Positions 1-43,714 of a DNA stretch of 43,714 bases are shown here, piece after piece. A model generated the notes under the pieces. The model saw only the letters and a list, made by a program, of their open reading frames with translations, had not been told where the DNA came from and made no database searches. The position numbers were made by a program, and so were the translations under genes. Position 1 is the first letter of the stretch, and each line of letters starts with the position of its first letter. The DNA comes from Escherichia phage NTNC80A: sequence record OP018999.1; one strand, written 5' to 3'.

Positions 1-819
1 GTGGCTAGCGAGTTCGAGAATGGTAGGCTGATTGCGTACGATTTGTCTCAGACCCAAGGGTACACGGGGAATATGCGGTCTGCTGTGTCTGACATGCAGT
101 TCCATTCCACTAATATTGAAGGCTTCACACCACGGGACTTCTTCTATGACCTAGGACACTTCCCTACCTCTTACACTAATGGTTCTTTTATCATGAAGCA
201 TTGGCGAGAAAAAGACTTACAGGTACAATGGTATAATGGTAAAGCATTCATACGGCTACATGAAGAAGATGGCCGTGTAACACTTACCAGTAAAGAGGGC
301 CTCGCTTTGTATGACTTTCGTGCTACAAAAGACGTGACGTTCAAGGGTCGCAACTTTGTATTCAAAAACGATGCAAGTGCAGACGTATTGAAGTGGTTCG
401 GCGGTTCAGGAAATATCTCCACGAAAGGCAACATCTCACCTATGGTAGATGGGGTTCCCTCTCTAGGTACAAATTCCTATCGCTGGGGTGCAGTGCATTC
501 AGTAAATGGGACGTTACAAACCTCTGATGGTAGGCTAAAGGAAATACATGATATTAAACAAGAAGAACTTGATGCTGGGCTTGAATTGTCAGCAAGCCTA
601 ATCAAATATCGTTGGGATGGAGGAGAAAAGTTCCACTTTGGTTGTATCGCCCAAGAGGTAATGTTAATCATGGAGAAACATAAGCTAGACCCATTACAGT
701 ATGGAATGGTTCAGTATGATGAAGAGGCAGACATCTTTAGTGTAAACTACGCTGAATTGAACAGCTTCTGCATCGCAGCTCTGTCTAGGAGGTTGAATGC
801 CATTGATCAAATCAGTTAA
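1..819 (+). CDS. tail fibre / receptor-binding protein with C-terminal intramolecular-chaperone (peptidase S74-like) domain
   Basis: ORF starts with GTG at base 1 and ends TAA 817-819. C-terminal ~100 aa carry SDGRLKEI...FHFGCIAQEV...YAELNSF, the Ser-Lys autocleaving chaperone signature of phage fibres/endosialidases. The 5' end may be cut by the window; no SD is visible across the circular junction. Confidence 0.6.
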   Translation: MASEFENGRLIAYDLSQTQGYTGNMRSAVSDMQFHSTNIEGFTPRDFFYDLGHFPTSYTNGSFIMKHWREKDLQVQWYNGKAFIRLHEEDGRVTLTSKEGLALYDFRATKDVTFKGRNFVFKNDASADVLKWFGGSGNISTKGNISPMVDGVPSLGTNSYRWGAVHSVNGTLQTSDGRLKEIHDIKQEELDAGLELSASLIKYRWDGGEKFHFGCIAQEVMLIMEKHKLDPLQYGMVQYDEEADIFSVNYAELNSFCIAALSRRLNAIDQIS

Positions 820-2676: not shown

Positions 2677-2711
2677 TAATGTAACCTAACTAACTAATGA
2701 GGATTAATAAC

Positions 2712-3068
2712 ATGGCTATGTCTAATATGACTTACTCTCAGGTTTACAACACTGCTCATGCTGCACTGGTTGAGCGTGTATGGGACGATGCTATTGATTG
2801 CGTTGACAATGCACACGATGCAATCCATGAGGTAGCTGATAGTGCTGTGCCTGTCTACTATGCTGACATTTTCTCAGTGATGGCGAGTGAAGGTATCGAC
2901 CACTTCTTCGAGGATTCTGGCTTAATGCCAGACACTAAAGACGTAACGGTCGTACTACAAGCCCGTATTTATGAACAACTTACCATTGATTTATGGGAAC
3001 GTGTTCAAGATATGATTGATGCATACATCGACTCTGCTGAGGATTCAGAAGAAGAAGAGGAAGAATAA
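2712..3068 (+). CDS. ocr: Ocr-like anti-restriction DNA-mimic protein (T7 gp0.3-like)
   Basis: 118 aa, MAMSNMTY... N-terminus, strongly acidic, ends EDSEEEEEE. Block [34 protein letters not shown]...[14 protein letters not shown] matches T7 gp0.3 as recalled. SD-like GAGGA precedes ATG 2712. Confidence 0.75.
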
Positions 3069-6913: not shown

Positions 6914-6929
6914 GTCTCACATGTGAGAC
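6914..6929. repeat. 16-bp perfect palindrome GTCTCACATGTGAGAC
   Basis: Exact palindrome ending 2 nt before the phage promoter at 6932. Confidence 0.8.
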
Positions 6930-7095: not shown

Positions 7096-7111
7096 GTCTC
7101 ACATGTGAGAC
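7096..7111. repeat. 16-bp perfect palindrome GTCTCACATGTGAGAC
   Basis: Exact copy, 5 nt upstream of the promoter at 7117. Confidence 0.8.
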
Positions 7112-7296: not shown

Positions 7297-9285
7297 ATGG
7301 CTATTATTCAGAATGTACCGTGTCCTGCTTGCCAAAAGAACGGACATGATATTACTGGCAATCATTTAATGATCTTTGACGATGGGGCAGGATACTGTAA
7401 CCGTGGTCACTTCCATGATAACGGTAAACCTTATTACCACAAGCCGGAAGGTGGCATCGAGATAACCGAGTTACCTATTACTGGCAATATCAAATATACA
7501 CCTTCTCAATTCAAAGAAATGGAGAAGGAAGGGAAGATAAGCGACCCTAAGTTGCGCGCCATCGCACTTGGTGGTATGCGTATGAAAGACCGTTGGGAGG
7601 TTATGAATGAGCAAGAAAGGGCAGACCAAGAAGCCGAGTGGAAACTCGATGTTGAATGGTTCCTCACGCTTAAGCGTAAGAACCTTGTATCCCGTCACAT
7701 TCGAGGCGACATCGCTGCAATGTATGATGTGCGCGTCGGACATGATGAAGAAGGCCGAGTCAACCGTCACTACTATCCTAGATACGAAAAGGGTGTGCTC
7801 GTGGGAGCAAAGTGCCGGACGCTGCCGAAGGATTTTAAGTTCGGTCACTTAGGTAAACTCTTTGGTATGCAAGACCTTTTCGGGATGAACACTTTGTCTC
7901 ACGTGTTAGACAAGGGAAGACGAAAGGATTGCTTGCTTATTGTAGGTGGTGAACTGGATGCACTAGCAGCGCAGCAGATGCTCCTTGATTCTGCCAAGGG
8001 TACTAAGTGGGAAGGTCAGCCATACCACGTGTGGTCTGTCAACAAAGGTGAATCTTGCCTTGAAGAGATAGTGCAAAACCGTGAACACATCGCCCAATTC
8101 AAGAAGATTATCTGGGGCTTCGATGGTGATGAGGTAGGACAGAAGCAGAACCAGCAAGCGGCTCGCCTGTTTCCCGGCAAATCCTATATCCTTGAGTACC
8201 CTTCTGGTTGCAAAGATGCCAACAAGGCATTGATGGCTGGCAAGGCTAAAGAATTTGTGGATGCTTGGTTTAATGCAAAGTCATCTGATGAAGTCTTTGG
8301 TAGCCAGATTAAATCTATCGCATCTCAAAGGGATAAGCTCAAGGCTGCACGTCCAGAACAAGGGCTGTCATGGCCTTGGCCTAAGCTAAACAAGGTAACG
8401 CTAGGTATTCGTAAGAACCAACTTATCATTGTAGGCGCAGGCTCTGGTGTAGGTAAGACTGAGTTCCTTCGTGAAGTAGTTAAGCACCTCATTGAAGAAC
8501 ACGGTGAATCTGTAGGCATCATTTCTACAGAAGACCCGATGGTCAAGGTGTCCCGTGCTTTTATCGGTAAGTGGATTGATAAGCGTATTGAGTTACCGCC
8601 AACCAACGACCCGAAAGAAGATGGATACCGTGAGGTGTTCGACTACACCGAGGAAGAAGCTAACGCCGCCATTGATTATGTAGCTGATACAGGTAAGCTG
8701 TTTGTAGCTGACCTAGAGGGTGACTATTCGATGGAAAAGGTAGAGCAAACTTGCCTAGAGTTTGAGGCTATGGGCATTTCTAATATCATCATTGATAACT
8801 TAACGGGGATTAAATTAGATGAGCGTGCTTTTGGTGGGAAGGTTGGTGCACTTGATGAATGCGTCAAGCGGATTGGTACTATCAAAGACCGACACCCGGT
8901 TACTATATTCCTTGTATCACACCTTACACGTCCTCCGGCAAACCGTACCCAACACGAAGAAGGTGGCGAGGTTATCCTTTCTGACTTCCGAGGCTCAGGC
9001 GCTATCGGATTCTGGGCATCTTACGCCTTGGGGATTGAGCGTAACACAAGAGCTGAAACGCTTGACGAAAGGACTACCACGTACATCTCATGTGTCAAAG
9101 ACCGCGACCAAGGTATCTACACTGGAACCAAGGTCATGCTTAAGGGTGACATTCAAACCGGACGTTTAATGGAACCACAAGCCCGTACTAAGTCATTTGA
9201 TACAGGTGAAGCAAGGCAACAAGAAGTGCCGGATTTACCGGACACTATAGAAGAGACAACCTTTGACGATGAACAGGAGTTTTAA
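7297..9285 (+). CDS. DNA primase/helicase (T7 gp4-like)
   Basis: N-terminal zinc ribbon CPACQKNG...CNRGH, Walker A GAGSGVGKT, acidic C-terminus ending DDEQEF. Confidence 0.95.
   Translation: MAIIQNVPCPACQKNGHDITGNHLMIFDDGAGYCNRGHFHDNGKPYYHKPEGGIEITELPITGNIKYTPSQFKEMEKEGKISDPKLRAIALGGMRMKDRWEVMNEQERADQEAEWKLDVEWFLTLKRKNLVSRHIRGDIAAMYDVRVGHDEEGRVNRHYYPRYEKGVLVGAKCRTLPKDFKFGHLGKLFGMQDLFGMNTLSHVLDKGRRKDCLLIVGGELDALAAQQMLLDSAKGTKWEGQPYHVWSVNKGESCLEEIVQNREHIAQFKKIIWGFDGDEVGQKQNQQAARLFPGKSYILEYPSGCKDANKALMAGKAKEFVDAWFNAKSSDEVFGSQIKSIASQRDKLKAARPEQGLSWPWPKLNKVTLGIRKNQLIIVGAGSGVGKTEFLREVVKHLIEEHGESVGIISTEDPMVKVSRAFIGKWIDKRIELPPTNDPKEDGYREVFDYTEEEANAAIDYVADTGKLFVADLEGDYSMEKVEQTCLEFEAMGISNIIIDNLTGIKLDERAFGGKVGALDECVKRIGTIKDRHPVTIFLVSHLTRPPANRTQHEEGGEVILSDFRGSGAIGFWASYALGIERNTRAETLDERTTTYISCVKDRDQGIYTGTKVMLKGDIQTGRLMEPQARTKSFDTGEARQQEVPDLPDTIEETTFDDEQEF
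9233..9255 (+). promoter_or_regulatory. phage RNAP promoter embedded in the 3' end of the helicase gene
   Basis: atttaccggacactatagaagag; +1 G at 9250; simultaneously encodes DLPDTIEE. Confidence 0.6.
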
Positions 9286-9463: not shown

Positions 9464-9479
9464 GTCTCACATGTGAGAC
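9464..9479. repeat. 16-bp perfect palindrome within an extended hairpin
   Basis: gcttgtctcaca/tgtgagacaggc gives a ~12-bp stem, followed by CTCTTATT; could act as a terminator or processing site. Confidence 0.7.
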
Positions 9480-13565: not shown

Positions 13566-13994
13566 ATGGCTAATCGTAAAGAGATGGAGATTGTTAAGTT
13601 AGATAATGGCTGTCTCGTGCAGACTAGCCATAAGCTCAATCCTGATGGTTACTTTCGTAAGCGTATATGGCATGAAGGTCGCTTGCAGCACATGATGTAC
13701 CATCGTTACATGTGGATTCAAAAGCATGGTGAGATACCAAAAGGGTATGAAGTTGACCACAAATGTAAGAATCGTGCATGTTTCAATGTTGACCATTTAC
13801 AATTACTTAAGTCGTCTGAGCATAGAACTAAAGACAATACAGGCCGTCATGGTGATAAGAAGCAAGCTGCATATTTAATTTGGAAGCAGCATTGCGGAGC
13901 TATTACAGGAGCTGCCCTAGCTGAATTGGTTGGTGTATCATTCAGTGCTACGTGTAAGTGGATTAGAGGCTGGAGGACTAATGAGCACCAGTGA
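13566..13994 (+). CDS. HNH homing endonuclease
   Basis: VDHKCKNRACFNVDHLQL HNH motif; free-standing gene right after the polymerase; SD AGGAGA. Confidence 0.85.
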   Translation: MANRKEMEIVKLDNGCLVQTSHKLNPDGYFRKRIWHEGRLQHMMYHRYMWIQKHGEIPKGYEVDHKCKNRACFNVDHLQLLKSSEHRTKDNTGRHGDKKQAAYLIWKQHCGAITGAALAELVGVSFSATCKWIRGWRTNEHQ

Positions 13995-14165: not shown

Positions 14166-14188
14166 ATTTACTGGACACTATAGAAGGA
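14166..14188 (+). promoter_or_regulatory. phage RNAP promoter (consensus)
   Basis: atttactggacactatagaagg; +1 G at 14183. Confidence 0.75.
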
Positions 14189-14252: not shown

Positions 14253-14630
14253 ATGTCTATGGTAACTACTCTGGTATTCGTGGCTCAATACTTTCGTGGC
14301 TTATCTAATAAGTTTAAGCAGAAGGCTATCTTTGCAATTCAAGAGCGTATCAACAAAATTGAAGAAGAACAAGTAGATGTAGAAGAACATCGTAGTTCTC
14401 AAATGATTGACTGCCACAATCGCTACTATACATCTCGTGATGACCTGAATGAACGTCAAGTCAAAGAGGTAGAAGAGATGATGGCACGTCACCAGCAAGA
14501 GCGGGACAATCTGGAAGCTACCTTCGAAGAGAACAAGGCATCAATTGCCCTTGTACATCAGGCTGCATCTGACAGTCTGAAGAAAGAGATTGTTATGCTG
14601 GAAATTGAACTTGATAACCTGACTAAGTAA
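14253..14630 (+). CDS. hypothetical protein (125 aa), coiled-coil-rich
   Basis: ORF track; SD AGGAGA; hydrophobic N-terminus then charged helical sequence. Confidence 0.6.
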   Translation: MSMVTTLVFVAQYFRGLSNKFKQKAIFAIQERINKIEEEQVDVEEHRSSQMIDCHNRYYTSRDDLNERQVKEVEEMMARHQQERDNLEATFEENKASIALVHQAASDSLKKEIVMLEIELDNLTK

Positions 14631-14636
14631 GGGGTT

Positions 14637-14870
14637 ATGATGGAAGAAGTAATTCAAGCTAGCAGTGTTCTTTTGTCTTTTAATGATGTGCCACCAGAGC
14701 ACCCAACTAGTGTAGTCTTGTTTGTTGAAGGTCAAAACTGCCAACAATTAAGTCTGTCACTTCGTGATACTCGCGTTAGTGTACATATGCAAGGTACCCA
14801 CGAGGGTGAATGTGTAAGCTACATTTACCCTCGAGACGCTATTGCACGCATTAAAGTAGTTCATAAATAA
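14637..14870 (+). CDS. hypothetical protein (77 aa)
   Basis: ORF track; starts 7 nt after the previous stop. Confidence 0.5.
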   Translation: MMEEVIQASSVLLSFNDVPPEHPTSVVLFVEGQNCQQLSLSLRDTRVSVHMQGTHEGECVSYIYPRDAIARIKVVHK

Positions 14871-14891: not shown

Positions 14892-15037
14892 TAGGTCGAT
14901 TTAGTTCGGCCTATGATTGTAAAGTGTTGAACCGCCTATTGTGCATGTTGCACATCCCCATTCTCTAACTGGGGCTTTCTAGTGAGTACATGCGTGTGCT
15001 CAGTACAAAGCTAACAAACAACAGGAGGAATAAATTA

Positions 15038-15844
15038 ATGGCACGTAACTTTGACTTCGGCGCAGAAATTACTCAATCCACTGGTGGTGTATTTAAGAAC
15101 CCTGAAGTGGGCGACCATGAGGCAGTTATCTCTGGCATCATTCACGTTGGTTCCTTCCAAGACATCTTCAAGAAAGGTAACACCACCGAGGTGAAGAAGC
15201 CTGCTAACTTCGTTCTTGTTAAGGTAATCCTGATGGGTGACGATGACAAGAACGAGGATGGCTCTCGTATGGAACAGTGGATGGCTGTGCCGCTCAAGTC
15301 TGGTGACAAGGCAACGCTGACCAAGTTCCTGAATGCAGTTGACCCGAAAGAATTGCTTGGTGGCTTCGATGACTTCATCGGCGAGTGCATGACTGTTAGC
15401 ATGGTTGGTGATGATAAGGGTGGCAAGAACGAAGATGGCACTTTCAAGTATGTTAACTGGAAAGGCTTCGGCGGTATGCCTGATAAACTCAAGAAGCTGG
15501 TTCTGGCTCAGGTGGAAGAAGAAGGCTTAACCATGACAGGCCACATCACCTTCGACAAGCTGACCCGCGAAATCATCGACAGCATCCCTGCACATCTCGT
15601 TCGTCAGTACCTGCTGAACGAAACACCACGCGGTAAGAACCTGTCCGTTGCTGGCTCTCATGTTGAAGCCATCATCGCTGAGGCTCGCGCTGCCGATGCT
15701 GAGTGGAAGAAGGCCAAGAAGAAAGACAATGACGCAACTCCAGAAGACCGTAAGCCTCTGGACACAGGTGCCTCTGTCCCGCAGGAAGTACCGGAAGCCC
15801 CTAACGTAGCGGCACCGGAGATGGACGAAGACTCGGAATATTGA
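15038..15844 (+). CDS. hypothetical protein (268 aa) with acidic C-terminal tail; possible ssDNA-binding/replisome protein
   Basis: ATG 15038 with SD AGGAGGAA (ORF track 14990); own promoter; C-terminus PEMDEDSEY; N-terminus MARNFDFGAEIT. The SSB assignment is a guess from position and tail. Confidence 0.7.
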   Translation: MARNFDFGAEITQSTGGVFKNPEVGDHEAVISGIIHVGSFQDIFKKGNTTEVKKPANFVLVKVILMGDDDKNEDGSRMEQWMAVPLKSGDKATLTKFLNAVDPKELLGGFDDFIGECMTVSMVGDDKGGKNEDGTFKYVNWKGFGGMPDKLKKLVLAQVEEEGLTMTGHITFDKLTREIIDSIPAHLVRQYLLNETPRGKNLSVAGSHVEAIIAEARAADAEWKKAKKKDNDATPEDRKPLDTGASVPQEVPEAPNVAAPEMDEDSEY

Positions 15845-15851
15845 ATAAACC

Positions 15852-16298
15852 ATGACTTCCGATCAGATAAAAGAGAAGATACAGAATAATATTGTTGTAT
15901 CTGAAACTGGATGCTGGTTGTGGCAGAAGTCTATAGCTACTAATGGATATGGTAACATCTGCGTAGGTAAAGGAAGAAACAGAGCAGTTCACAGGGTTGC
16001 TTGTGAACTGTATCACGGAGTTCCACCTACGCGTATGGATGCCGTTCATTCTTGTGACAATAAGGCTTGTTGCAATCCAGAACACCTGTCTTGGGGAACA
16101 AGGAGTCGTAATGAAATAGAGGCTGTGAGAAGGCTAGGTAAGTCACATAAACTTAAACTACATGAAGCAGCATACATTAAGTTCTCCGGTTTACCTACTA
16201 AAGAATTAGTAGGTATGTTCTCTGTGAGTAAAGATTTAATTAACAGAATTAAGCGTGGTGTCTTATGGGCACACGTAACCAAGGGGGATTTAAGATGA
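15852..16298 (+). CDS. HNH homing endonuclease
   Basis: HSCDNKACCNPEHLSWGT HNH motif plus C-terminal helix-turn-helix-like region. Confidence 0.85.
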   Translation: MTSDQIKEKIQNNIVVSETGCWLWQKSIATNGYGNICVGKGRNRAVHRVACELYHGVPPTRMDAVHSCDNKACCNPEHLSWGTRSRNEIEAVRRLGKSHKLKLHEAAYIKFSGLPTKELVGMFSVSKDLINRIKRGVLWAHVTKGDLR

Positions 16299-16513
16299 AA
16301 GTACAAATTGTAACCCTGCACTGTAAGAAAGGCATTACAACCCTAGGCGGCACAACTTTTCACTCCTTCTCTGAAGGGGAGACATACGCCGACCTGCACT
16401 ACATCTGGCGCGATGGGCAGCACGTGGTGAACTACAGCGACCCCGCTACGGGGAAACGCCACGGCGTGTCGCTTCCGGCGCACGACATCGCTCAGGTGAA
16501 CACAGTTTTATAA
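16295..16513 (+). CDS. hypothetical protein (72 aa)
   Basis: ATG 16295 overlapping the HNH stop (ATGA); SD AAGGGGGA; MKVQIVTLHCKKG... Confidence 0.5.
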   Translation: MKVQIVTLHCKKGITTLGGTTFHSFSEGETYADLHYIWRDGQHVVNYSDPATGKRHGVSLPAHDIAQVNTVL

Positions 16514-16520
16514 AGTCTCA
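16505..16520. repeat. 16-bp perfect palindrome GTCTCACATGTGAGAC
   Basis: Exact copy, 15 nt upstream of the promoter at 16536. Confidence 0.8.
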
Positions 16521-16535
16521 CATGTGAGACAAATC

Positions 16536-16558
16536 GGTGTCCGGTATTTACTGGACAC
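16536..16558 (+). promoter_or_regulatory. phage RNAP promoter (consensus)
   Basis: atttactggacactatagaagag; +1 G at 16553. Confidence 0.75.
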
Positions 16559-16617
16559 TATAGAAGAGAAGAATTTTAATCGGCGATAATGCCACAACTA
16601 ACAAAGGAGAATTTAAT

Positions 16618-16983
16618 ATGTTCAAGATTGAAACTATCGTAAACCGTGTTGTTAAAGGTGCTGATCTGGTATCCGTTGAGTCTTTCGTTATCGTCGATGA
16701 AGCCAACAAACTGGTAGCTGGCACTAAGGCTTACGATACCCGTGAAGAGGCTCAGGCTAAGATTGACAGCATGGGTAACTTCGCTGCTGGTCTGGAGTTC
16801 GCTCGTGCTTGCTTCCCTGAGCAGGCTGACAAAGCTCAGATTGGCAAGGCTAACATCGTAGCTGAGTATCTGGATTGGATTGCCGCTGGTAAACCGGTGA
16901 AAGAAGCTAAGGCTGAAGAAGCTGAGGCTCCGGTAGAAGTAGCTGCACCGGAAGCTCCGGTAAGCGAAGAAGAAGAGTTTTGA
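16618..16983 (+). CDS. small acidic protein (121 aa) ending SEEEEF, hypothetical
   Basis: Consensus promoter, strong SD (AAAGGAGA) and downstream terminator suggest high expression; C-terminal acidic tail with terminal Phe. Confidence 0.75.
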   Translation: MFKIETIVNRVVKGADLVSVESFVIVDEANKLVAGTKAYDTREEAQAKIDSMGNFAAGLEFARACFPEQADKAQIGKANIVAEYLDWIAAGKPVKEAKAEEAEAPVEVAAPEAPVSEEEEF

Positions 16984-17042
16984 TAATAGCAGGTGTTGCC
17001 TCTGTTAGTCCTAGATGACTATCACGCTCACCTCATCTAATG

Positions 17043-17076
17043 CCCTGTCTGCCTTAGTGTAGGCAGGGTCTTTTGC
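17043..17076 (+). terminator. phage-type terminator hairpin
   Basis: ccctgtctgcc-ttagtg-taggcaggg then TCTTTTG; same architecture as the hairpin after the capsid gene. Confidence 0.65.
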
Positions 17077-17297
17077 GTAATAGTTATTGGAGAATGAATT
17101 ATGCCGACTATTGAAGAACGTTTGAAACTAGAGTACCACTACTTTTATGCACCTTTAAGAAAGACAGAAGTCACTGTCGTAAAAGTTAAGCTGGATGGTG
17201 ACCTCTTTCTTCAAAAGGTTAAAGAGACAAGAAGCCAGAACGAATCTCGTACTTTTGCATATGAGGTACTCTATTCTGTATTGAAGGAGTGGCCTAC

Positions 17298-18326
17298 ATG
17301 CGACCAAACTTCGACTTCGGAGCCACAGTATCGGAAGACAATAATCTCATCCTGTGGCCAACTGAAGGTAATCGAATCGCTTTAATAGATGCTGATATGT
17401 TACCCTACATCGTAGGTTATACAATCAGTGACATGACTTATGTACGAGCCACAACTCGTGTTAAGTCAGGACAAGTCCCATCAATCAAAGATACACCTGA
17501 GTGTAAGCAAGCGTGTGACCGTGTGAACTCCTTGCTTAACTCTTGGGTGTATGCAGCAGAGTGTGATGCAGCTAAGTTATTCATGACGAAATCAGAAGCT
17601 AACTTTCGTGTACGCCTAGCCTTCACCAAACCTTATAAGGGTCAACGTAAGACCGAGAAGCCCCCCTTCTTCTATGAATTGAGAGAGCATCTCTTAGAGG
17701 TTCATGGTGCAATCTTGGCAGATGGTGAGGAAGCTGATGACCTCATGAGCATTGCACAATGGGACAGCCACCGCCGCTTCCAGCAAGATACAGGTAACGA
17801 GTTCCCTATCGGTAGTCCAGAGCATAAAGCATTCTCTGATACTTGCATTGTTTCCTTGGATAAGGACTTGATGATTGTTCCCGGTTGGCATCTTCAGCCG
17901 GGTCAAGAGAAGAAATGGGTAGAGCCTATGGGTTGGCTTGAGTTACGCCGTAAGGCTAATGGTCAGGTCAAAGACCTAAAAGGTGCTGGCCTCATGTTCC
18001 ATTATGCACAGATGATTATCGGTGATGATATTGATAACTATGCTGGCATACCTGGACGTGGTGCTAAATATGCCTATGATCTTCTCAAGAGTTGTAAGAC
18101 AGAGAAAGAGTTGTACATGGCAGTGCTTGGTGCTTACAAGGCTAAGTTCGGACATGGACAAGTTAAGATTAAGAATTACCGAGGGGGTTATCGTATCGGC
18201 AAAGCCTTTGACTTGATGCTTGAATGTGGTCGCCTAGCTCACATGGCAAGGTTCAAAGGTGATATATGGCGAGCCGATAAGAATGAAATCTTATGGGGAG
18301 ATGATGGCGATGAGTGGATGCATTGA
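17298..18326 (+). CDS. 5'-3' exonuclease (T7 gp6-like)
   Basis: ATG 17298 with SD AAGGAG 8 nt upstream (ORF track GTG 17289); RIALIDADMLPYIVGY aligns with the T7 exonuclease N-terminal metal-binding region as recalled. Confidence 0.9.
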   Translation: MRPNFDFGATVSEDNNLILWPTEGNRIALIDADMLPYIVGYTISDMTYVRATTRVKSGQVPSIKDTPECKQACDRVNSLLNSWVYAAECDAAKLFMTKSEANFRVRLAFTKPYKGQRKTEKPPFFYELREHLLEVHGAILADGEEADDLMSIAQWDSHRRFQQDTGNEFPIGSPEHKAFSDTCIVSLDKDLMIVPGWHLQPGQEKKWVEPMGWLELRRKANGQVKDLKGAGLMFHYAQMIIGDDIDNYAGIPGRGAKYAYDLLKSCKTEKELYMAVLGAYKAKFGHGQVKIKNYRGGYRIGKAFDLMLECGRLAHMARFKGDIWRADKNEILWGDDGDEWMH

Positions 18327-18747
18327 CCACGGTTGTAAAGGTTTTGGCATAGGTTATGCCACGGCATATTACAAGGGTCGTGACGGTAAGAAGAAGTTCA
18401 CCACGAAACACCGAGTAGTTTACTGCAAGGTTAATGGTATTCATCCAGAAGATTTACCTAAAGACCTAGTAATACGCCATACCTGTGACAATGCACGTTG
18501 CATAAATCCAAATCACCTTGAGATAGGAACCCACGCCGACAACATGCGAGACATGGCAGAGCGAGGGCGCGCCTACAAGGGCGGTATGCCCGGTGAGAAG
18601 AATGGGAGATGTGTCCTCTCCGATGAGCAAGTCTTGGAAATCAAGAGGCTACGTGCCGAAGGTTATACCCTCAAACGCATAGCTGACTTGTATTCTGTAG
18701 GCACATCTCAAATCTCCCGTATTACCAGAGGAGAACAACGTGCGTAA
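18301..18747 (+). CDS. HNH homing endonuclease
   Basis: HTCDNARCINPNHLEIGT HNH motif and C-terminal HTH-like region; start overlaps the exonuclease 3' end. Confidence 0.85.
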   Translation: MMAMSGCIDHGCKGFGIGYATAYYKGRDGKKKFTTKHRVVYCKVNGIHPEDLPKDLVIRHTCDNARCINPNHLEIGTHADNMRDMAERGRAYKGGMPGEKNGRCVLSDEQVLEIKRLRAEGYTLKRIADLYSVGTSQISRITRGEQRA

Positions 18748-33375: not shown

Positions 33376-33391
33376 GTCTCACATGTGAGAC
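33376..33391. repeat. 16-bp perfect palindrome (18 bp with flanks)
   Basis: tGTCTCACATGTGAGACa between two internal virion protein genes. Confidence 0.8.
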
Positions 33392-42898: not shown

Positions 42899-42921
42899 AT
42901 TTACTGGACACTATAGAAGAG
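42899..42921 (+). promoter_or_regulatory. phage RNAP promoter (consensus) driving the fibre genes
   Basis: atttactggacactatagaagag; +1 G at 42916. Confidence 0.75.
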
Positions 42922-43000
42922 ATAAGATAGCGCCGTTCTTTTGAGCGGCCTATTACTAGCCAATCTTCATAGGGAGGGTTGGAAAGTAATAGGAGATAGC

Positions 43001-43714
43001 ATGGCTAAATTAACCAAACCTAAGACTGAAGGAATCTTGCATAAAGGACAATCTTTGTATGAGTACCTTGATGCGAGAGTTTTAACATCAAAGCCGTTTG
43101 GTGCTGTAGGTGGGGGCACTTCTTCTCAAGTTCGCCTATTTACTTCTGATGGTACTTCTCGGACAGTGTCCCTCACCAACGGTAACGTGCGTCTTTCTAC
43201 CAGTAGCACAGGCTATTTGCAGTTAGGTGCTGATGCAATGACCCCAGATAGTACTGGTACATACGCATTAGGTTCCGCCAGTCGAGCATGGTCTGGTGGT
43301 TTTACTCAAGCAGCATTCACTGTTACCTCAGATGCTCGGTGTAAAACAGAACCTCTTACTATCTCAGATGCCTTACTGGATGCTTGGTCTGAAGTTGACT
43401 TTGTGCAGTTTCAGTATTTGGATCGTGTTGAGGAGAAGGGTGCAGACTCAGCTAGATGGCACTTTGGCATCATCGCTCAGCGAGCTAAGGAGGCTTTCGA
43501 ACGTCACGGTATAGATGCACATCGCTATGGCTTCTTGTGCTTCGACAGTTGGGATGATGTATACGAGGAAGATGCCAATGGCTCTCGTAAACTGATTACA
43601 CCAGCAGGTTCTCGCTACGGTATTCGTTACGAGGAAGTACTGATATTAGAGGCTGCGTTGATGCGTCGGACTATTAAGCGTATGCAGGAGGCACTAGCTT
43701 CCCTGCCTAAGTAA
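43001..43714 (+). CDS. tail fibre protein with C-terminal intramolecular-chaperone (peptidase S74-like) domain
   Basis: ATG 43001 with SD AGGAGA (ORF track 42941); SDARCKTE ... ARWHFGIIAQRA ... YGIRYEEV autocleavage/chaperone signature; TAA is the last codon of the window. Confidence 0.8.
   Translation: MAKLTKPKTEGILHKGQSLYEYLDARVLTSKPFGAVGGGTSSQVRLFTSDGTSRTVSLTNGNVRLSTSSTGYLQLGADAMTPDSTGTYALGSASRAWSGGFTQAAFTVTSDARCKTEPLTISDALLDAWSEVDFVQFQYLDRVEEKGADSARWHFGIIAQRAKEAFERHGIDAHRYGFLCFDSWDDVYEEDANGSRKLITPAGSRYGIRYEEVLILEAALMRRTIKRMQEALASLPK

What the first reader, a model, noticed from the sequence alone, without database searches (positions are those of the whole stretch)
16618..16983. Highly expressed 121-aa protein with acidic tail ending in Phe (SEEEEF)
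The gene has a consensus promoter, strong SD and a terminator directly downstream, so it is probably very abundant. In T7 the acidic C-terminal Phe of the SSB and helicase binds basic patches on the DNA polymerase. The helicase here ends DDEQEF and this protein ends the same way, but it is too small to be a canonical SSB. It may be a replisome competitor or regulator, or a nucleic-acid mimic.
Basis: partly seen in the sequence, partly recalled or inferred. Interest (0 to 1): 0.6.

Follow-up and report, generated by a model that had tools for sequence, protein, structure and literature searches.

The report
Abundant phage protein with replisome-type tail
This is a real, conserved and probably extremely abundant 121-residue protein of SP6/K1-5-like phages. 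Its floppy acidic tail ending in phenylalanine matches the tails of the phage's own helicase and of a second replication protein, so it is most likely a third, still uncharacterised protein that plugs into the phage DNA-replication machinery.

Summary
The window is an SP6/K1-5-like phage (Vectrevirus). ORF 16618..16983 is the K1-5 gene 18 / SP6 gene 20 homologue (PHROG 4429, unknown function). It has a perfect 23-nt phage-RNAP promoter, an AAGGAG Shine-Dalgarno and a hairpin plus U-tract 58 nt after the stop. This promoter-gene-terminator cassette recurs in most related genomes examined from several genera. Its E. coli codon adaptation is the highest of 52 ORFs (0.66; capsid 0.49).

AlphaFold with a deep alignment gives a confident 93-residue domain (beta-hairpin plus three helices) with no significant match in PDB or BFVD. 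A disordered acidic linker follows. All 120 close homologues end in EEEF; 19 of 27 distant cluster representatives end in an acidic stretch plus F.

New finding: in 17 genomes, three proteins carry this tail: primase-helicase, a ~260-aa protein (K1-5 gp16-like, candidate SSB) and this one. The tails co-vary within genomes. No T7 gp2.5 homologue is present.

Best reading: a stoichiometric replisome-docking protein using the T7 gp4/gp2.5 type of tail on a new fold. What the folded domain binds is unknown; ssDNA is my leading guess. The competitor or mimic ideas are not excluded.

The parts
16515..16530 (+). 16-bp perfect palindrome GTCTCACATGTGAGAC just upstream of the promoter; belongs to a dispersed family
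   Evidence: 5 perfect and 2 near-perfect copies against 0.04 expected. Copies at 6914, 7096 and 16515 each lie about 25 nt before an SP6-type promoter. Role unknown.
16546..16568 (+). SP6/K1-5-type phage RNA polymerase promoter, full consensus ATTTACTGGACACTATAGAAGAG
   Evidence: Perfect core (one of 3 in the window); the identical 23-mer occurs only at 42899-42921. Phage-specific repeated promoter elements also lie 20-130 nt upstream of the homologous gene in 8 of 9 genomes checked. A promoter (phiA54) is annotated there in Vibrio phage phi-A318.
16604..16609 (+). Shine-Dalgarno AAGGAG, 8 nt before the ATG
   Evidence: Read from the sequence.
16618..16896 (+). Folded N-terminal domain, residues 1-93: beta-hairpin (3-13, 16-26) plus helices 42-51, 53-65, 71-89. 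Conserved K37, A45, G58, K77-A78-N79, A82, W87, G91
16897..16980 (+). Disordered acidic Ala/Glu/Pro/Val linker (residues 94-117) ending in the invariant docking tip E-E-E-F-COOH (16969-16980)
   Evidence: pLDDT <50 for 101-118. Net charge -8. Linker length and sequence vary while EEEF is invariant in 120/120 close homologues. 19 of 27 cluster representatives end in an acidic stretch plus F, and 3 more have F within the last few residues.
17042..17075 (+). Terminator-like hairpin (11 bp, 6 GC pairs, loop 6) followed by CUUUUG
   Evidence: In the 17 genomes scanned, an 11-12-pair GC-rich hairpin, or a shorter interrupted stem in the four ECBP5-like genomes, follows the homologous gene within about 65 nt. 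16 are followed by a U-tract; Kp7 has a hairpin without one.
9265..9282 (+). C-terminal tail DDEQEF of the primase-helicase (CDS 7297..9285): same motif type
15038..15844 (+). gp16-like protein (268 aa from MARNFDFG), candidate SSB. Long acidic linker ending ...PEMDEDSEY (tail 15821-15841)
   Evidence: 58 of 61 homologues end in Y or F. CAI 0.476, rank 3 of 52. 18 of 26 family members hit NCBIfam NF046043, best E 9.9e-19, though below that model's cut-off. No detectable similarity to T7 gp2.5, N4 SSB or HK620 SSB.

Best explanation
The gene encodes a very abundant accessory protein of the phage DNA-replication machinery. It is made from its own full-consensus phage promoter and insulated by its own terminator.

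The protein has two parts. The first is a 93-residue folded domain of a fold with no solved counterpart. The second is a ~28-residue disordered acidic linker ending in an invariant Glu-Glu-Glu-Phe carboxy-terminus.

The tail is a short docking motif of the same kind as those on the phage's own primase-helicase and on the gp16-like putative SSB. It therefore most likely binds the same basic site or sites. By analogy with T7 gp4 and gp2.5, these would be on the phage DNA polymerase.

The expression level is that of a stoichiometric coat protein, not of an enzyme subunit. I therefore infer that the folded domain binds a bulk replication intermediate, most likely ssDNA or fork DNA, alone or beside gp16-like protein. 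The tail would then hand that substrate to the polymerase. The tail may fold back on its own domain until the ligand is bound, as in T7 gp2.5.

- Shown: gene, signals, conservation, codon bias, domain plus disordered-tail architecture, the three-protein tail set and its co-variation.
- Inferred: the polymerase as receptor, ssDNA binding, tail gating.
For: 1. **Real, conserved gene.**
   - PHROG 4429 matches full length at 4e-56.
   - 211 close homologues were found, plus 27 cluster representatives down to roughly 25-30% identity in an exhaustive HMM search.
   - tblastn finds it in 215 phage records across Molineuxvirinae, Colwellvirinae, Gajwadongvirus and others, always between DNA polymerase and exonuclease.
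2. **Architecture.** Confident folded domain plus disordered acidic tail. The tip is invariant and the linker variable, which is the signature of a short linear motif.
3. **Three-protein tail set.** Helicase, gp16-like and this protein all end in acidic-x-[FY] in 17 of 17 genomes.
   - This protein ends in Y only in MJG and Kp7, where the helicase and gp16-like also end in Y.
   - In Alpheus and uligo, this protein and gp16-like both carry 1-2 extra residues after the F. In uligo the helicase does too.
   - Permutation over 15 genomes: this tail against the same-genome helicase plus gp16-like tails, 286 of 50,000 shuffles reach the observed identity. gp16-like against helicase, 7 of 50,000.
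   - Profile-profile comparison of the two families aligns only the last 7 residues.
4. **T7 precedent.**
   - The acidic C-tails of the T7 helicase bind positively charged patches on T7 DNA polymerase (PMC8472574).
   - The gp2.5 tail mediates contacts with other replication proteins and competes with ssDNA for its own binding surface (PMC10359462 and its references 23, 28, 31).
5. **Abundance.**
   - CAI rank 1 of 52 in the window.
   - The homologue is also top among the genes scored in K1-5 (0.659), Era103 (0.603) and ECBP5 (0.670).
   - In the T7 class II region the top gene is the SSB gp2.5 at 0.573.
   - The promoter-gene-terminator cassette is conserved.
6. **No recognisable SSB.** T7 gp2.5, N4 SSB and HK620 SSB give no tblastn hit better than E 0.77 in the window. 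None of the nine early- and middle-region proteins scanned matched a Pfam SSB family.
Against: - No binding partner is demonstrated for the tail or the domain.
- The predicted fold is not an OB fold and matches no known nucleic-acid-binding fold.
- The folded domain is net acidic (-3.5). T7 gp2.5 cores are too, so this is weak evidence either way.
- gp16-like is the better size and architecture match for an SSB, so a second ssDNA binder may be redundant.
- A hugely abundant protein with a free polymerase-binding tail might be expected to compete with helicase and SSB. That favours the competitor reading unless the tail is gated.
- The co-variation test uses 15 genomes and is not corrected for phylogeny. 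For this protein against either partner alone it is only p about 0.02-0.03.
- Co-occurrence with gp16-like (215 records each) is uninformative, because both are core genes of one lineage.
Confidence: 0.45

Rival explanations
1. Decoy or regulator. The protein has no nucleic-acid-binding function. Its abundant free tail competes with the helicase and SSB tails for the basic patches of the DNA polymerase. This would tune polymerase exchange or timing, or switch the polymerase between replication and recombination or repair modes.
For: The tail is of the same type as, and co-varies with, the helicase and gp16-like tails. Predicted abundance is very high, so it would out-titrate other tails. The domain has no recognisable nucleic-acid-binding fold.
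Against: A 93-residue domain conserved to near-invariance within the SP6 group and recognisable at roughly 25-30% identity is more than a decoy needs. A constitutive competitor made from a full-consensus promoter would be expected to poison replication. It is a core gene kept in every lineage examined.
Confidence: 0.15
2. Host-directed takeover protein. It would be an abundant stoichiometric inhibitor or adaptor of an abundant host protein, in the way T7 gp5.5 binds H-NS, or a mimic of the host SSB C-terminal tip that blocks host SSB-client proteins. The resemblance of its tail to the replisome tails would be convergent.
For: It has the same map position (between DNA polymerase and exonuclease) and small size as T7 gp5.5. 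High expression suits titration of an abundant host target. It is acidic overall (pI 4.4).
Against: There is no similarity to T7 gp5.5, 5.7 or 5.9. T7 gp5.5 itself has an unremarkable CAI of 0.325. The tip varies between phages (EEF, ETF, ESF, EDF, AAY, GAF) and lacks the Pro-Phe of the near-universal bacterial SSB tip DDDIPF (my own knowledge); HK620 SSB, which does copy the host, ends DYPPF. The tip tracks the phage's own helicase tail across hosts from Vibrio to Klebsiella, which points to a phage-encoded receptor.
Confidence: 0.15
3. Phage-encoded processivity or bridging factor. It would be a thioredoxin substitute that binds the polymerase through its tail and clamps or tethers it to DNA or to the helicase.
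For: Its size (13 kDa) is like that of thioredoxin. The SP6-like polymerase aligns with T7 gp5 only in the exonuclease and palm/fingers regions, and the thumb-side segment between them is unalignable. The tail is of the polymerase-docking type.
Against: A 1:1 polymerase subunit would not need the highest codon adaptation in the genome, when the polymerase gene itself scores 0.28-0.35, nor its own full-consensus promoter and terminator. Whether SP6-like phages need host thioredoxin could not be established from the papers available.
Confidence: 0.1

Closest known systems
T7 gp2.5 single-stranded DNA-binding protein (Pfam PF21265)
   Same: Middle-class gene with the highest codon adaptation of its replication module. 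Folded core plus disordered acidic C-terminal tail ending in Phe (...DEDGDF). Core mildly acidic. The tail is a docking element for other replisome proteins (PMC10359462).
   Different: No sequence or profile similarity. Half the size. Predicted beta-hairpin plus three helices instead of an OB fold. ssDNA binding not shown.
C-terminal tail of the T7 gp4 primase-helicase
   Same: Acidic tail ending in Phe (...SNDTDF) that binds positive patches on the polymerase (PMC8472574). In SP6-like phages the helicase tail (DDEQEF here) is the closest within-genome match to this protein's tip in terminal residue type.
   Different: Here the motif sits on a small stand-alone protein rather than on a hexameric motor.
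SP6 gp20 / K1-5 gp18 / PHROG 4429 (uncharacterised family)
   Same: Direct orthologues: 90-97% identity, same position and same cassette.
   Different: None. The family has no assigned function in any record or held paper seen. One record calls it 'putative ATPase' (Kp7), which nothing here supports.
DUF669 / N4-SSB / HK620-SSB group of non-canonical phage SSBs (relevant to the neighbour gp16-like, not to this protein)
   Same: Replication-module proteins with acidic C-tails in phages lacking a known SSB (Kazlauskas 2016, PMC4889955; Hutinet 2018, PMC5928155). DUF669 proteins are reported in other Autographiviridae (PMC9145550).
   Different: gp16-like gave no Pfam DUF669 hit and no significant hhalign match to N4 or HK620 SSB. 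Its only family link is NCBIfam NF046043, below cut-off.
T7 gp5.5 (H-NS-binding protein)
   Same: Small protein encoded between DNA polymerase and exonuclease; ends in Phe.
   Different: No similarity. No acidic tail. CAI only 0.325.
DUF1508 / UPF0339 (YegP-like) unit
   Different: All below significance. It would cover only a third of the domain, and DUF1508 itself has no known function.

Membership tests
PHROG 4429 (SP6 gp20 / K1-5 gp18 family) | Full-length profile match | tested here: met
   E 4.2e-56, residues 1-121 on profile 1-121. 90-97% identity to SP6 and K1-5-group proteins.
T7 gp2.5-like SSB (PF21265) | Sequence or profile homology to gp2.5 | tested here: not met
   No Pfam hit. 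hhalign against T7 gp2.5 and against an 18-sequence gp2.5 alignment gives probability <1%.
T7 gp2.5-like SSB (PF21265) | OB-fold core | tested here: not met
T7 gp2.5-like SSB (PF21265) | Acidic disordered C-terminal tail ending in an aromatic residue | tested here: met
   Residues 94-121 have net charge -8 and pLDDT <50, ending EEEF. Conserved in 120/120 close and 19-22 of 27 distant representatives.
T7 gp2.5-like SSB (PF21265) | Binds ssDNA | not testable with these tools
   Needs a gel-shift or fluorescence assay.
Replisome proteins with a T7 gp4/gp2.5-type polymerase-docking tail (functional class, not a homology family) | Same tail motif present on the helicase and SSB-like protein of the same phage | tested here: met
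   17 of 17 genomes. Within-genome similarity exceeds shuffles: 286/50,000 for this protein against both partners.
Replisome proteins with a T7 gp4/gp2.5-type polymerase-docking tail (functional class, not a homology family) | Tail binds basic patches of the phage DNA polymerase | not testable with these tools
   No complex prediction or binding assay was available. A listing of conserved K/R positions in the polymerase was uninformative.
Ocr-type DNA mimic (PF08684) | Profile match, or surface-wide acidic charge on the folded domain | tested here: not met
   No Pfam ocr hit for this protein. The window's Ocr is a different gene, 2697..3068. The folded domain has net charge only -3.5.
DUF1508 (PF07411) | Pfam match above the gathering score | tested here: not met
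   2 of 28 members match, best E 0.024, not the window protein.
   No Pfam, PHROG-function, PDB-sequence or fold match to any structural protein. The gene lies in the DNA-metabolism module.

The most novel reading that the evidence does not exclude
The 93-residue domain is a new, non-OB class of phage single-stranded-DNA (or fork) coat protein. It would be the most abundant non-structural protein of SP6-like infections. Together with the gp16-like protein it would replace the single bifunctional gp2.5 of T7, so that SP6-like replisomes run on three tail-bearing clients of one polymerase docking site.
Probability: 0.25. Interest if true: 0.75.

Novelty: new variant of a known kind. Interest (0 to 1): 0.6.

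Why it matters
The T7 replisome is the textbook minimal replisome. Its logic rests on two acidic, Phe-terminated tails (helicase and SSB) sharing docking sites on the polymerase. SP6/K1-5-like phages are used for SP6 RNA polymerase and as therapeutic phages against K1 E. coli, Klebsiella, Salmonella and Erwinia. They turn out to have no recognisable gp2.5. Instead they carry three tail-bearing proteins, and the best-expressed gene of the genome is the one with no known function and no known fold.

Working out what it binds would do three things:
- fill the missing SSB and accessory slots of a whole branch of Autographiviridae;
- test how several clients share one docking site;
- possibly yield a new small nucleic-acid-binding fold or a new replication control element.

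If it proves to be a simple host-takeover protein, it is still a core, highly expressed gene worth annotating.

Tried and rejected
- **Shallow-alignment structure.** AlphaFold with 30 close homologues gave pLDDT 43.6 and was discarded. The deeper alignment A2 was needed.
- **Sequence and profile tests on this protein.** All negative: Pfam, NCBIfam and PDB sequences; T7 gp2.5; T7 gp5.5; phi29 SSB p5, which gave only an 'ANxxAxY' coincidence at E 0.064.
- **Identifying gp16-like as an SSB.** No result against the T7 gp2.5 sequence or profile, N4 SSB, HK620 SSB, a PDB profile search or Pfam. Only NCBIfam NF046043 matched, below its cut-off. It therefore remains a 'candidate SSB'.
- **Related-locus searches.** The search for related loci failed with the divergent alignment. 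Two distant representatives found nothing.
- **Literature.** No held paper gives a function for SP6 gp20 or K1-5 gp18. The SP6 genome paper and the key T7 PNAS papers are not held.
- **Polymerase basic residues.** A listing of conserved basic residues gave no clear patch.
- **RNA genes.** No Rfam family or tRNA anywhere in the window.
- **Co-occurrence.** The 215-record overlap with gp16-like was considered as evidence of a specific partnership and rejected, because both are lineage core genes.

Full report
**Identity of the window.** Megablast of 16400-17200 finds about 95% identical DNA in K1-5, K1E, LL11 and other Vectrevirus genomes, and related DNA in Salmonella SP6-group phages. The window is therefore an SP6/K1-5-like member of Autographiviridae. 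The target ORF corresponds to K1-5 gene 18 and SP6 gene 20. Nearly every record calls it 'hypothetical protein'. It matches PHROG 4429 (unknown function) end to end at E 4e-56. It has no Pfam, NCBIfam or PDB-sequence match.

**Checking the observation.**
- The ORF is 16618..16983, 121 aa, with AAGGAG 8 nt upstream of the ATG.
- The promoter is for the phage RNA polymerase, not sigma-70. The core ACACTATAGAAGAG at 16555-16568 is one of three perfect copies. The full 23-mer recurs only once more, at 42899-42921.
- An 11-bp GC-rich hairpin followed by CUUUUG lies at 17042-17075, starting 58 nt after the stop.
That is the highest of 52 ORFs, well above the major head protein (0.487; identity confirmed) and the median (0.283).
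- The homologue is also the top scorer among the genes scored in K1-5, Era103 and ECBP5.
- In the 17 genomes examined (this window plus 16 genomes spanning about a dozen host genera), a GC-rich hairpin follows the homologous gene within about 65 nt. In 16 of the 17 a U-tract follows the hairpin.
- In 8 of 9 genomes checked, the phage's own repeated promoter element precedes the gene.

The inference of very high expression is well supported.

**The protein.**
- Close homologues are 87-98% identical over residues 1-95.
- The Ala/Glu/Pro/Val-rich linker varies in length and sequence, yet all 120 listed proteins end EEEF.
- An exhaustive HMM search of 1.8 billion cluster representatives found only 27 representatives. 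Apart from a few fragments and spurious long hits these are 87-149 aa and down to roughly 25-30% identical.
- Of these 27, 19 end in an acidic stretch plus Phe (ETF, EEF, VDF, ESF, EQF, ENF, EDF, EAF). Three more have the Phe within a few residues of the end.
- AlphaFold2 with this deeper alignment gives pLDDT about 90 for residues 1-90: beta-hairpin 3-13/16-26, then helices 42-51, 53-65 and 71-89. The linker scores below 50.
- Weak echoes of DUF1508 are below any threshold.
- Nearly invariant residues across the family are K37, A45, G58, K77-A78-N79, A82, W87 and G91.

**The surroundings and the key new observation.** The gene always sits between the DNA polymerase and the 5'-3' exonuclease, downstream of a ~255-270-aa protein (K1-5 gp16-like; 15038..15844 here). 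I examined 17 genomes: this window, Era103, phi-A318, Alpheus, uligo, Reminis, CB5A, MJG, ECBP5, JSF38, DT115P1, Kp7, PP1, PM85, Vc1, phiY2 and one metagenomic contig. In every one, three proteins carry an acidic C-terminus ending in Phe or Tyr: the primase-helicase, gp16-like and this protein.

The tails look alike within a genome:
- Vc1: PEQEF / NEQEF / AEEEF.
- MJG: all three end in Y.
- Kp7: all three end in EY.
- uligo: all three carry one or two extra residues after the F.

This protein ends in Y only where the helicase does. A permutation test over 15 genomes gives the following counts of shuffles reaching the observed within-genome identity:

| Comparison | Shuffles reaching observed (of 50,000) |
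|---|---|
| This protein vs both partners | 286 |
| This protein vs helicase | 1,020 |
| This protein vs gp16-like | 1,309 |
| gp16-like vs helicase | 7 |

This test is not corrected for phylogeny. A profile-profile comparison of the two families aligns only their last seven residues. The tails are thus a shared short motif on unrelated domains.

**What gp16-like is.**
- It is the third most codon-adapted gene.
- 58 of 61 homologues end in Y or F, after a conserved P-x-[ML]-D motif.
- It shows no detectable similarity to T7 gp2.5, N4 SSB or HK620 SSB.
- 18 of 26 family members hit NCBIfam NF046043 ('phage replication initiation protein, NGO0469 family'), best E 9.9e-19 but below that model's cut-off.
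- The literature shows that non-canonical phage SSBs (N4 SSB, DUF669, HK620 HkaK) have acidic tails and occur in phages lacking known SSBs (PMC4889955; PMC5928155). DUF669 proteins are reported in other Autographiviridae (PMC9145550).

I treat gp16-like as the candidate SSB, but this is inference. The window contains no gp2.5 homologue.

**Mechanism.** In T7, the acidic C-tails of the helicase bind positively charged patches on the polymerase (PMC8472574). The gp2.5 tail mediates its contacts with the polymerase and helicase, and competes with ssDNA for gp2.5's own binding surface (PMC10359462 and its references). The simplest reading of three co-varying tails in SP6-like phages is that all three dock on one phage-encoded receptor, most likely the polymerase.

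This protein shows coat-protein-like expression. It holds the rank that the SSB gp2.5 holds in T7's class II region (0.573, top of 21 genes). That argues for a stoichiometric role rather than an enzyme subunit. I therefore favour a replisome-docking protein whose folded domain binds a bulk intermediate such as ssDNA or fork DNA, with the tail possibly gated by that ligand. AlphaFold gives the last three residues higher confidence than the linker, which is a faint hint of fold-back.

**Rivals.**
- A host-directed takeover protein or host-SSB-tip mimic. The variable tip lacks the Pro-Phe of bacterial SSB tips and tracks the phage helicase across hosts, which disfavours this.
- A thioredoxin-like processivity factor. 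The extreme expression relative to the polymerase gene disfavours this.

None is excluded computationally.

**Comparison with the known, and novelty.** The protein works like the tail-bearing clients of the T7 polymerase, as far as the motif goes. It is not a member of the gp2.5 family: homology and OB fold were tested and not met. The family is already catalogued as hypothetical. Its tail, the three-protein tail set, the conserved expression cassette and the new fold do not appear in any paper I could search. I rate it a new variant of a known kind, with moderate to high interest (0.6).

Noticed in passing
window 6914-6929, 7096-7111, 9464-9479, 16515-16530, 33376-33391 (perfect); 1660-1675 and 7896-7911 (1-2 mismatches): Dispersed 16-bp perfect palindrome GTCTCACATGTGAGAC: 7 copies against 0.04 expected. 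Three copies sit about 25 nt upstream of SP6-type promoters. It could be an RNA processing site, a weak terminator or a protein-binding site.
   Followed up: partly
window 2697..3068 (+): An Ocr-type DNA mimic (Pfam ocr, E 8.7e-42) ending in a run of six Glu. The phage therefore already has a dedicated nucleic-acid mimic.
   Followed up: partly
window 13566..13994, 15852..16298, 18259..18747 (+): Three HNH_3 homing-endonuclease ORFs are scattered through the replication module. The one between gp16-like and the 82-aa ORF is absent from K1-5. Related phages carry HNH genes at other positions, including inside the DNA polymerase gene (L003, L021).
   Followed up: partly
window 14637..14870 and 16265..16513 (+): The two small ORFs (77 and 82 aa) on either side of gp16-like both hit PHROG 8057 (E 6e-15 and 4e-4), so they may be diverged paralogues. 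Function unknown.
   Followed up: no
window 14990 vs 15038: The mechanical ORF for gp16-like starts at 14990 (284 aa), but all homologues begin MARNFDFG, i.e. at 15038 (268 aa).
   Followed up: yes
window 1..819 and 42899-43714: The window begins inside a tailspike gene (Peptidase_S74 intramolecular chaperone domain). The second full-consensus promoter lies at 42899-42921. The sequence is therefore circularly permuted relative to the SP6 and K1-5 records.
   Followed up: partly
window 17101..17385 (+): A 94-aa ORF (K1-5 gene 19; PHROG 10319, labelled 'DNA repair protein') overlaps the start of the exonuclease gene by about 100 nt in another frame. No Pfam or NCBIfam support for the label.
   Followed up: no
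L019 (NC_047746, Vibrio phage Vc1): The record is classified under Drexlerviridae/Jhansiroadvirus. Its gene order (RNA polymerase, primase-helicase, DNA polymerase, gp16-like, gp18-like, exonuclease) is that of SP6-like Autographiviridae. This is probably a taxonomy error in the record.
   Followed up: no
L022 (Klebsiella phage Kp7) 10001-10372: The homologue of this protein is annotated 'putative ATPase', which nothing in the sequence supports. Its downstream hairpin is the only one of 17 without a U-tract.
   Followed up: no
window 14253..14630 (+): A 125-aa coiled-coil-like protein (K1-5 gene 15) has its own near-consensus promoter at 14175 and CAI 0.43. PHROG 7450 carries the doubtful label 'polysaccharide chain length determinant protein'.
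   Followed up: no
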